This document shows, piece after piece, positions 44,832-45,794 of a DNA stretch of 64,000 nucleotides (positions are counted from its first letter, which is position 1; the number at the start of each line of letters is the position of its first letter). The notes under the pieces are model-generated. The model was not told the origin of the DNA. It worked only from the letters and a program-made list of their open reading frames with translations, and made no database searches. This stretch comes from an uncultured Gammaproteobacteria bacterium (GTDB lineage Bacteria > Pseudomonadota > Gammaproteobacteria > JAURND01). The stretch lies in contig CAVZRN010000020.1 in the NCBI GenBank assembly GCA_963777715.1, forward strand, positions 8,395 to 72,394, in the 5' to 3' direction. A program made the translations under genes and the position numbers.

Positions 44832-45794
44832 TTAGGGAAGGGGCAATATATCTCTTGCGCCGCGTTCCAGCAATACCTCCGCCAGGGCTATGCCCAACTC
44901 CTGCGGCTTATCCGCTCTGCCGGTTAACTCTGCTGCTATCATCAAGGTTGTATGCGGATGCGCCACAAATCCGCGTATATGCAACTGCGCAGCGCCTACC
45001 CAGGTCGCATACGCAGCAATGGGTAATTGGCAGCCGCCGCCCAGCCGTTGATTAAACGCGCGCTCGGCGGTGATACACACCTGGGAAGGGGGGTGATTTA
45101 GCGGCGTCAGCCATGCCTGTACGGCAGCGTTATTCTCGTGACATTCAATACCAATCGCGCCTTGCCCCACCGCCGGTATCCAGGCTTCGGGTTCTAAATA
45201 ACAACTGATTCGCGCGTCTTCGCCGAGTCGGTGTAGGCCGCTGGCAGCCAAAATAATGGCATCGTATTCACCAGCATCGAGTTTCTTTAGTCGCGTGCCA
45301 ACATTGCCACGCAGGTTCTCAACGCGCAGATCAGGGCGTATTTGGCGCAATAGACAGGCGCGACGACTGCTGGAAGTGCCAACGATAGCGCCTGCGGGTA
45401 ATTCATCGATACCCCGTAGGGGCGGTTCGTGAACCGCCCGCTCGTGAACCGCCCGCTTGCGAACTGCTCCTACCAACACATCGCGAGGATCATCACGCTT
45501 ACACACTGCCGCCAGGCGCAGCTGATCGGTAGGTTCTGTCGGCATATCCTTGATCGAATGCACAGCAATATCGGCGCGGCCTTGTAAGATCGCCAGTTGT
45601 AGTTCCTTCACGAATAAACCCTTGCCACCGATGGTAGCCAGGGAAGAAGTCAGGTGTTTGTCGCCTTCTGTCACCAGGCCGATAATCTCAACCTGAAGCT
45701 GTGGATGGAGGCGCGTCAGCGCGGTTTTAACGGCATTGGCTTGCCATAGGGCGAGGGGACTCTTGCGGGTGGAAATGCGGAGGGTAGACTGCAT
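44832..45794 (-). CDS. hemC: porphobilinogen deaminase (hydroxymethylbilane synthase) carrying an in-frame repeat-derived insertion
   Basis: LRISTRKSPLALWQA...GGKGLFVKELQ..ADIAVHSIKDMP...GTSSSRR...LRGNVGTRLKKLD.GEYDAIILA..GL.RL. There is an extra GAVRKRAVHERAVHEPPLRG between DPRD and the LPAG motif. Confidence 0.9.
   Translation of the reverse strand: MQSTLRISTRKSPLALWQANAVKTALTRLHPQLQVEIIGLVTEGDKHLTSSLATIGGKGLFVKELQLAILQGRADIAVHSIKDMPTEPTDQLRLAAVCKRDDPRDVLVGAVRKRAVHERAVHEPPLRGIDELPAGAIVGTSSSRRACLLRQIRPDLRVENLRGNVGTRLKKLDAGEYDAIILAASGLHRLGEDARISCYLEPEAWIPAVGQGAIGIECHENNAAVQAWLTPLNHPPSQVCITAERAFNQRLGGGCQLPIAAYATWVGAAQLHIRGFVAHPHTTLMIAAELTGRADKPQELGIALAEVLLERGARDILPLP
45415..45474. repeat. family E-related repeat inside the hemC reading frame
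   Basis: ccgtaggggcggttcgtgaaccgcccgctcgtgaaccgcccgcttgcgaactgctcctac shares cgtaggggcggttcgtgaac with 44754..44815. Confidence 0.75.

What the first reader, a model, noticed from the sequence alone, without database searches (positions are those of the whole stretch)
45415..45474. Palindromic repeat inserted in frame inside hemC
HemC is otherwise colinear with enterobacterial porphobilinogen deaminase. Between DPRD and the (I/L)D.LPAG motif it carries GAVRKRAVHERAVHEPPLRG. This is encoded by ccgtaggggcggttcgtgaaccgccc gctcgtgaaccgccc gcttgcgaactgctcctac, the same sequence family as the intergenic element at 44754-44815, 17 bp beyond the hemC stop. The ORF stays open (320 aa). This resembles Rickettsia palindromic elements that insert in frame into essential genes and add surface loops.
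Basis: partly seen in the sequence, partly recalled or inferred. Interest (0 to 1): 0.62.

Follow-up and report, generated by a model that had tools for sequence, protein, structure and literature searches.

The report
REP hairpin repeat inside hemC
A 58-base copy of this genome's own small hairpin repeat (a GTAG-tagged REP) sits in frame inside the haem-synthesis gene hemC and adds a floppy 14-residue surface loop; this is a real but already known kind of event.

Summary
hemC (window 44832-45794, minus strand, 320 aa) carries a 58-nt element at 45416-45473. Its first 26 nt match the intergenic repeat 16 nt past the hemC stop at 25 of 26 positions.

All 30 other aligned HemC lack the REP segment. 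This includes the three closest, at 71-74% identity with the same gene order. The net gain is 14 residues.

The element is a GTAG-tagged REP/REPIN. It is not a Rickettsia RPE by family. The 2.05-Mb genome holds two REP families that share the head GTAGGGGC, with 72 and 71 loci. It also holds one RAYT-like tyrosine transposase gene. None of these is expanded in eight relatives.

About 12 of 143 loci lie inside long ORFs, against roughly 82% coding DNA. Clear in-frame cases are hemC, murD, mutL, dnaX, a PD-(D/E)XK nuclease and an RND pump.

In the AlphaFold model the insert is a low-confidence coil early in domain 2. All cofactor and catalytic residues are kept, and hemB and hemE are intact.

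A same-genus relative carries an unrelated 128-nt repeat, in frame, in the same loop.

Intragenic REPs were described in 2013, so this is a new member of a known kind.

The parts
44832..45794 (-). hemC (hydroxymethylbilane synthase / porphobilinogen deaminase), 320 aa, ORF intact
   Evidence: The residues matching E. coli D84, R131, R132, R149, R155 and C242 are invariant columns D83, R144, R145, R162, R168 and C255 in alignment A1.
45416..45473 (.). REP-A-derived insert, 58 nt, bounded by GTAG...CTAC. On the hemC strand it reads VGAVRKRAVHERAVHEPPL plus one base.
   Evidence: Absent from 30 other aligned HemC and from 28 relatives' genomic hemC.
45416..45440 (+). Near-consensus REP unit GTAGGGGCGGTTCGTGAACCGCCCG
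   Evidence: The 24-nt unit matches with 0 mismatches (locus L007). It is 96% identical over 26 nt to the intergenic copy.
45426..45470 (+). Three tandem 15-nt right-half-stem units (TTCGTGAACCGCCCG, CTCGTGAACCGCCCG, CTTGCGAACTGCTCC). They encode the repeated RAVHE.
   Evidence: family D1, spacing 15. The same tail-type copies elsewhere have an 18-nt period.
44752..44817 (.). Intergenic REPIN: two inverted REP-A units with a 4-10-nt spacer, between convergent hemC and a 919-aa ORF
   Evidence: pair I1: 31-nt arms, 84% complementary; folding energy -47 and -58 kcal/mol on the two strands, z-scores -7.5 and -8.4.
45800..46339 (-). Conserved 179-aa gene of unknown function just upstream of hemC. 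It forms part of the conserved uvrD - x - hemC gene order used to establish orthology.
   Evidence: (no Pfam match).
46459..48621 (+). uvrD-type helicase gene, used as a synteny anchor

Best explanation
**What it is.** A copy of the genome's own GTAG-tagged REP element (family A, unit GTAGGGGCGGTTCGYGAACCGCCC(CTAC)) entered hemC after this lineage split from its known relatives.

**How it got there (inferred).** REPs and their inverted doublets (REPINs) are non-autonomous hairpin elements. They are thought to be moved as single-stranded DNA by a RAYT, a HUH/Y1 tyrosine transposase. This genome has one such gene, next to a cluster of sister-family REPs.

**Why it survived (inferred).** The hemC copy kept the reading frame. 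This orientation and frame of the palindrome has no stop codon. The copy lies in the first loop of domain 2, far from the cofactor cleft. It is therefore translated as a disordered 14-residue extension and tolerated.

**How the 58-nt form arose (inferred).** Replication slippage on the repeated half-stem, or insertion of a pre-existing tail-type variant, gave three 15-nt units (5 codons each, RAVHE twice). About four native codons were lost.

**Shown versus inferred.** Shown: family membership, derived state, open frame, loop position, and genome-wide depletion from coding DNA. Inferred: mobilisation by the RAYT, neutrality, and translation of the insert.
For: **Family.**
- 186 units in 72 loci for family A and 71 loci for family B. 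Controls give 0.
- The architecture is that of a REPIN doublet.
- The GTAG head supplies the TAG stop codon of about 10 upstream ORFs, as described for GTAG REPs (PMC3733652).

**Derived state.**
- All 30 other aligned HemC lack the REP segment. They include three at 71-74% identity, two of which (on longer contigs) show the uvrD-x-hemC gene order.
- REP-A and the G000-type RAYT are absent from the eight relatives G001-G008; the only RAYT-query hit there is a weak one in G007 (E 3.5e-7). REP-B gives one exact copy in G005 and one 2-mismatch hit in G003.
- REP-A is absent from 398 of 400 other genomes of the class.

**RAYT.**
- One gene, PF01797 at 34 bits. NF047646 'REP-associated tyrosine transposase' scores 78.5 bits (cut-off 80), against 24.6 bits for the IS200 model.
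- A REP-B cluster lies directly upstream of it.
- A 44-48% identical RAYT in another family (G062) carries exact REP-A copies inside and beside its own gene.

**Tolerance.**
- The AlphaFold2 model has pLDDT 92.6 overall. Residues 110-128 are coil, with block pLDDT 60 for residues 111-120 and 81 for 121-130.
- TM-score to E. coli 1PDA is 0.88/0.95.
- Catalytic and cofactor residues are invariant.
- hemB and hemE are intact.

**Selection filter.**
- 12 of 143 loci lie inside long ORFs, against about 82% coding DNA (binomial P about 2e-82).
- Clear in-frame copies are in murD (18-column gap against PDB MurD), the mutL linker, the dnaX linker, a PD-(D/E)XK nuclease and an RND pump.
- A same-genus genome has an unrelated 128-nt dispersed repeat in frame in the same loop.
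Against: - The 58-nt element is not a multiple of three, and the net gain is 42 nt. A simple cut-and-paste does not explain the junctions. No empty site from a near-identical strain is available to define them.
- The RAYT is flanked by family B, not by the family A found in hemC. It scores just under NCBIfam's cut-off. Its activity is untested.
- The genome is a draft with 67% estimated completeness and several frameshifted genes (RND pump, nuclease). Some REP-bearing genes may therefore be decaying.
- No RNA or protein data show that the insert is translated.
- Independent reads support only the right-hand junction.
Confidence: 0.85

Rival explanations
1. The segment did not arrive by transposition. 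It was copied locally by template switching or gene conversion from the REPIN 600 bp away (44752-44817), or it grew by hairpin-driven slippage from a short chance match (the native GTA codon).
For: - The element and the downstream REPIN form an inverted pair, 26 nt and 88% complementary, 599 nt apart (pair I2).
- The length is not a multiple of three and native codons are missing. That fits a repair or recombination event better than a clean insertion.
- The internal 15-nt tandem units show that slippage has acted.
Against: - The hemC copy is of the tail subtype also found at unlinked loci (murD, the nuclease, intergenic copies). It does not have the architecture of the neighbouring doublet.
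- Dozens of dispersed copies show that the family moves around the genome.
Confidence: 0.1
2. hemC is on its way to becoming a pseudogene. The insert is damage in a decaying genome, and the enzyme no longer works.
For: - Estimated completeness is 67% for a 2.05-Mb genome.
- The RND pump gene is frameshifted downstream of its REP.
- The PD-(D/E)XK nuclease gene is broken inside a REP.
- Earlier notes report a frameshifted tfuA in this genome (unchecked).
Against: - The hemC ORF is intact over its full length.
- Every cofactor and catalytic residue is conserved.
- The model is confident outside the insert.
- hemB and hemE are intact.
- A strain about 5% diverged keeps the insert joined to hemC.
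Confidence: 0.08
3. The insert is an assembly artefact: a repeat-induced misjoin inside hemC.
For: - REP copies sit at contig ends in this assembly (C12, C13).
- Short-read contigs of related strains break exactly at the element's edge.
- The source reads could not be examined.
Against: - The frame is kept and both flanks are colinear hemC.
- An independent peat-metagenome contig spans from inside the element into hemC (record 10).
- A misjoin would not be expected to leave a full-length ORF.
Confidence: 0.03

Closest known systems
GTAG-tagged REPs and their dimers, including intragenic REPs (Di Nocera, De Gregorio & Rocco 2013, PMC3733652); REPINs (Bertels & Rainey 2011, PMC3116915)
   Same: - A 24-28-nt GC-rich palindrome with a GTAG tag.
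- Inverted doublets that fold into long hairpins.
- Mostly just downstream of genes and between convergent genes.
- The GTAG supplies TAG stop codons.
- A minority lie inside ORFs, notably replication and repair genes (here mutL, dnaX and a RecB-like nuclease), encoding about 10-30 residues.
   Different: - The stem sequence and the host (an uncultured gammaproteobacterium) are new.
- hemC was not seen among the hosts named in the section of that paper read here.
- The hemC copy is a tail variant with three tandem half-stems.
Rickettsia palindromic elements (RPE-1 to RPE-10; Ogata et al. 2000, as summarised in PMC10969869)
   Same: Selfish palindromic DNA inserted in frame into unrelated housekeeping genes. 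The added peptide sits where it is compatible with the fold.
   Different: - RPEs are about 100-150 bp, occur in Alphaproteobacteria, and have no known transposase.
- Nearly half of the RPEs in three of the ten families are intragenic.
- Here the unit is 28 nt and GTAG-tagged, a RAYT is present, and only about 8% of loci are intragenic.
RAYT (REP-associated tyrosine transposase; E. coli TnpA-REP, PDB 4ER8; groups in PMC5581495)
   Same: - A single-copy Y1/HUH gene with HUH (HLH) and YEHVIRN motifs.
- REPs lie next to it.
- NCBIfam's REP_Tyr_transpos is the best model.
   Different: - Only a weak sequence match to 4ER8 (E 0.06).
- 78.5 bits against a cut-off of 80.
- Flanked on one side only, and by the sister REP family.

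Membership tests
GTAG-tagged REP / REPIN | Short (20-40 bp) imperfect palindrome with an unpaired GTAG at one end | tested here: met
   The unit is GTAG + GGGCGGTTCG / YGAACCGCCC (+CTAC). 225 GTAGGGGC heads against 50 for the reversed control.
GTAG-tagged REP / REPIN | Many dispersed copies, predominantly extragenic, near the 3' ends of genes | tested here: met
   143 loci in 2.05 Mb. 106 are intergenic, 18 overlap a gene end and about 12 are internal. The gene map is a crude longest-ORF map.
GTAG-tagged REP / REPIN | Inverted doublets (REPINs) able to form a long hairpin | tested here: met
   About 60-nt doublets are common. The window doublet folds at -47 and -58 kcal/mol with z-scores -7.5 and -8.4.
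GTAG-tagged REP / REPIN | A cognate RAYT gene in the genome, flanked by the REPs | tested here: inconclusive
   One RAYT-like gene. REP-B copies lie directly upstream and none downstream, and no REP-A is nearby. A homologous RAYT in G062 and L068 carries exact REP-A copies.
GTAG-tagged REP / REPIN | Mobilisation by the RAYT | not testable with these tools
   Needs in-vitro binding and cleavage assays or in-vivo transposition assays.
Rickettsia palindromic elements (RPE) | About 100-150-bp element of one of the RPE families, in Rickettsia | tested here: not met
   The element is 58 nt (28-nt unit) and the host is a gammaproteobacterium by its named HemC relatives. Sequence similarity to RPEs was not tested, because no RPE sequences were at hand.
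Rickettsia palindromic elements (RPE) | In-frame insertion into conserved genes at positions compatible with the fold | tested here: met
   hemC and murD. Also mutL, dnaX and the nuclease.
HemC (TIGR00212 hydroxymethylbilane synthase) | Full-length match above the curated cut-off, with cofactor cysteine, catalytic Asp and Arg residues present | tested here: met
   337 bits against a cut-off of 164. D83, R144, R145, R162, R168 and C255 are conserved. TM-score 0.88/0.95 to 1PDA.

The most novel reading that the evidence does not exclude
The first loop of HemC domain 2 may be more than passively permissive. It may be a preferred landing site for hairpin-forming mobile repeats.

Two congeneric genomes carry two unrelated dispersed repeats (a 58-nt REP derivative and a 128-nt MITE-like element) in frame within about 3 codons of each other. 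All other HemC examined are invariant in length there.

If targeting rather than survivorship explains this, small repeats would home to defined positions inside genes. The cause could be a local DNA or replication feature, or one element acting as a landing pad for the next.
Probability: 0.12. Interest if true: 0.55.

Novelty: new member of a known kind. Interest (0 to 1): 0.3.

Why it matters
**What it adds.** This is a clean, well-controlled example of selfish hairpin DNA becoming part of an essential enzyme without breaking it. It is outside Rickettsia, and the likely transposase is present in the same genome.

**A possible use.** It marks a position in porphobilinogen deaminase that tolerates 14-44 extra residues, which may help protein engineers.

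**A caution for annotators.** REP copies inside genes can shift HMM scores, split genes at frameshifts and depress completeness estimates in genomes like this one.

**What it does not do.** It does not open a new question, because intragenic GTAG REPs were catalogued in 2013.

Tried and rejected
- **Genome-contig scan with HemC.** It returned only distant phyla. The useful close relatives came from the search for homologous proteins and the look-up of encoding contigs.
- **A second 'insert' in G019 hemC.** It is a masked stretch of N, not an insertion. Discarded.
- **Earlier-findings search by sequence.** Found nothing.
- **Source sequencing run.** Not found. Only runs holding related strains or other organisms' REPs turned up, so the left junction is not independently verified.
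- **RNA fold of the insert on the mRNA strand.** The z-score of -1.87 is unremarkable. No case for a regulatory hairpin.
- **Shared flank ATCGATACCC.** The hemC copy and one nuclease copy share it, which suggested the following GID codons might belong to the element. The 10-mer occurs 12 times in the genome and IDELP fits the native [LIV][DE]xLP pattern. Judged coincidental and left unresolved.
- **Exact insertion boundaries and any target-site signature.** These could not be determined, because the nearest empty sites are only 71-74% identical at protein level.
- **PDB sequence search with the RAYT.** It gave only a marginal hit to 4ER8.

Full report
**1. The observation**

The window has an open 320-codon ORF on the minus strand at 44832-45794. 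It is HemC:
- It matches Pfam PF01379 (E 1e-77) and PF03900.
- It matches TIGR00212 at 337 bits against a cut-off of 164.
- It aligns end to end with the solved E. coli and Vibrio cholerae enzymes (E 6e-90 and 5e-95), with one 14-column gap.

The gap falls between E. coli residues 111 and 112.

Read on the plus strand, the element runs from GTAG at 45416 to CTAC at 45473, 58 nt in all. Its parts are:
- a near-consensus repeat unit at 45416-45440;
- three tandem 15-nt copies of the right half-stem at 45426-45470.

On the hemC strand it reads VGAVRKRAVHERAVHEPPL.

The first 26 nt are 96% identical to the left arm of an intergenic element at 44752-44817. That element is an inverted doublet, and 16 nt separate it from the hemC stop codon.

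Chance is excluded. The 20-nt core has 6 hits in the window and none in 100 shuffles.

**2. The insert is derived**

I aligned HemC from 28 genomes of the same genus, family and class. All have the same loop length, apart from the one same-genus genome discussed in section 6.

A search of 5.8 billion proteins found closer relatives, at 71-74% identity in the alignment. Their contigs keep the gene order uvrD - small unknown gene - hemC. They read DPRDVLVS-KRYTQ-LEQLP where the window reads DPRDVLV-GAVRKRAVHERAVHEPPLRG-IDELP.

So 20 residues stand where 6 are expected, a net gain of 14. At the DNA level the native GTA codon coincides with the GTAG head, and about four native codons are missing.

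The exact junctions cannot be reconstructed without a near-identical empty site.

**3. What the element is**

The whole genome is 2.05 Mb in 25 contigs with 44% G+C.

*Family A.* The 24-nt unit GTAGGGGCGGTTCGTGAACCGCCC occurs 186 times with up to 6 mismatches, and 0 times in the reversed genome. The hits group into 72 loci.

*Family B.* A sister family shares the head GTAGGGGC but has other stems (AACCCTTGTGGTT and AGGCCTTGTGCCT). It has 71 loci, again with a control of 0.

*Typical forms.*
- About 60-nt inverted doublets with slightly different stems in the two halves.
- Single 28-nt palindromes.
- Tail variants with an extra half-stem.
- A 137-nt form with a long spacer.

The doublet in the window folds at -47 and -58 kcal/mol on its two strands, with z-scores -7.5 and -8.4.

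*Distribution.* About 10 copies supply the TAG stop codon of the upstream ORF. On a crude longest-ORF gene map, 106 of 143 loci are intergenic.

This anatomy is that of GTAG-tagged REPs and REPINs (PMC3733652, PMC3116915).

**4. The likely mobiliser**

The genome has one Y1/HUH transposase gene. Its best models are:
- NCBIfam 'REP-associated tyrosine transposase', 78.5 bits, just under the cut-off of 80;
- IS200, 24.6 bits.

Several family-B REPs lie directly upstream of the gene.

A 44-48% identical RAYT in an unrelated genome of the same class (G062) carries an exact family-A REP in frame inside its own coding sequence, and another copy next to it. One metagenome contig (L068) shows the same arrangement.

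That links this RAYT clade with this REP. Mobilisation itself is inferred, not shown.

*Absence from relatives.* REP-A and the G000-type RAYT are absent from the two same-genus and six same-family genomes; the only RAYT-query hit there is a weak one in G007 (E 3.5e-7). REP-B gives one exact copy in G005 and one 2-mismatch hit in G003. REP-A is absent from 398 of 400 other genomes of the class.

*Presence elsewhere.* The exact 24-mer occurs in more than 120 metagenome contigs with 37-72% G+C. The family is therefore widespread but patchy.

**5. Other intragenic copies**

About 12 of 143 loci lie well inside ORFs of 200 codons or more. The genome is roughly 82% coding on the same crude map (binomial P about 2e-82).

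Clear cases:

| Gene | REP content | Evidence |
|---|---|---|
| murD | Peptide AGGSRTAPT, in an 18-column gap against solved MurD | |
| mutL | A family-A doublet plus a family-B remnant in the interdomain linker | |
| dnaX | Two family-B copies in the linker | |
| PD-(D/E)XK nuclease | Two composite family-A copies | |
| Unknown 422-aa protein | One copy | |
| RND pump | One copy | |

The palindrome is open in three of its six frame-and-orientation combinations. These read VGAVREPPL, VGAVHEPPL and GGSRTAPT, and all three readings occur. hemC and murD read the same strand in different frames.

This is the pattern expected if insertions land anywhere and only harmless ones persist.

**6. Effect on the enzyme**

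An AlphaFold2 model built on 31 sequences has mean pLDDT 92.6. It superposes on E. coli 1PDA with TM-score 0.88/0.95 and rmsd 1.7 Å.

Residues 110-128 are coil, with pLDDT near 60. They lie between strand 105-109 and the short helix before strand 137-140.

By the E. coli domain limits (domain 2 = 105-193, hinge = 100-104; PMC3945110), the insert is in the first loop of domain 2, not between domains. From the periplasmic-binding-protein-like topology I infer that this loop points away from the cofactor cleft.

The counterparts of D84, R131, R132, R149, R155 and C242 are all conserved. hemB and hemE are intact elsewhere in the genome. HemC is therefore probably functional. This is inferred, not shown.

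**7. A parallel event**

The same-genus genome G002 has a 344-aa HemC with a 44-residue insert in the same loop, within about three codons of the G000 site.

That DNA is unrelated to the REP. It is itself a dispersed repeat of G002: three more copies at 77-80% identity, about 128 nt long, with inverted ends.

So two unrelated repeats have settled independently in one loop. This fits a permissive site. Targeting cannot be excluded.

**8. Independent support and limits**

Public runs hold hemC fragments that are 95-98% identical, from soil, peat and lake metagenomes.
- One peat contig runs from inside the element (45431) to 45641.
- Another contig starts exactly at the element's edge.

The right junction is therefore confirmed in an independent sample. 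The left junction is not.

The genome is a draft with an estimated completeness of 67%. At least two REP-bearing genes are frameshifted. Translation of the insert is untested.

**9. Verdict**

Intragenic REPs in loops and linkers, especially of replication and repair proteins, were described in 2013. In-frame RPEs were described in 2000 (summarised in PMC10969869).

This is a new member of a known kind. Interest is modest.

Noticed in passing
L037 (G002:C111) 1985-2205; copies in L173, L174 and L175: The same-genus genome G002 has an unrelated dispersed repeat of about 128 nt with inverted ends. It has four copies in a 0.9-Mb draft. One copy is inserted in frame (44 aa) in the same HemC loop.
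   Followed up: partly
L043 (G062:C327) 1233-1808 minus strand; REPs at 1501-1528 and 1859-1886: A RAYT gene of another gammaproteobacterial family carries an exact family-A REP in frame inside itself (peptide CRGGSRTAPTK, after the HUH motif). A second copy lies just upstream. Metagenome contig L068 shows the same arrangement.
   Followed up: partly
Genome contig C22:45030-48000 (outside the window): A PD-(D/E)XK (AddB/RecB-like) nuclease gene holds two composite family-A REP clusters. At the second, one extra C in the GTAG head (GTCAGGGG) coincides with a frame break that splits the gene into 316-aa and 660-aa ORFs.
   Followed up: partly
Genome contig C7:26959-29620 (outside the window): An RND efflux pump gene carries a REP with three 18-nt tandem units (GGSQTT, GGSQTT, GGSRTAPT). 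It is frameshifted about 50 codons downstream. This is either a pseudogene or an assembly error.
   Followed up: no
Window 23372-23433, 25058-25161 and 51134-51217: Three loci of the sister REP family B (GTAGGGGC + AACCCTTGTGGTT or AGGCCTTGTGCCT stems). The last one supplies the TAG stop of the upstream ORF.
   Followed up: partly
Genome contigs C7:9821-9957, C8:106671-106807, C12:63-199, C19:114226-114362 and C22:22851-22987: A 137-nt variant in which two family-A REPs flank a conserved 81-nt AT-rich spacer. It looks like a MITE. One copy sits at a contig end.
   Followed up: no
Window 45800-46339 (minus strand): A 179-aa protein with no Pfam match is always found between uvrD and hemC in this lineage (also in G002, L040 and L041). 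It has a likely signal peptide and conserved Cys residues.
   Followed up: no
Window 41898-44657 (plus strand): A 919-aa ORF with no Pfam match and a Lys/Glu/Pro-rich repetitive C-terminal third, convergent with hemC. It may be a secreted effector of this Legionella-like organism.
   Followed up: no
Whole genome (G000): Estimated completeness is only 67% for 2.05 Mb in 25 contigs, with several frameshifted genes. Marker genes may be broken or altered by repeats, or the assembly may carry indel errors.
   Followed up: no
L053-L132 (metagenome contigs): The exact 24-nt family-A unit occurs in more than 120 metagenome contigs of 37-72% G+C. It is usually present once per contig. 21 of 85 copies lie inside open frames of 200 aa or more, with the same three peptide readings.
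   Followed up: partly
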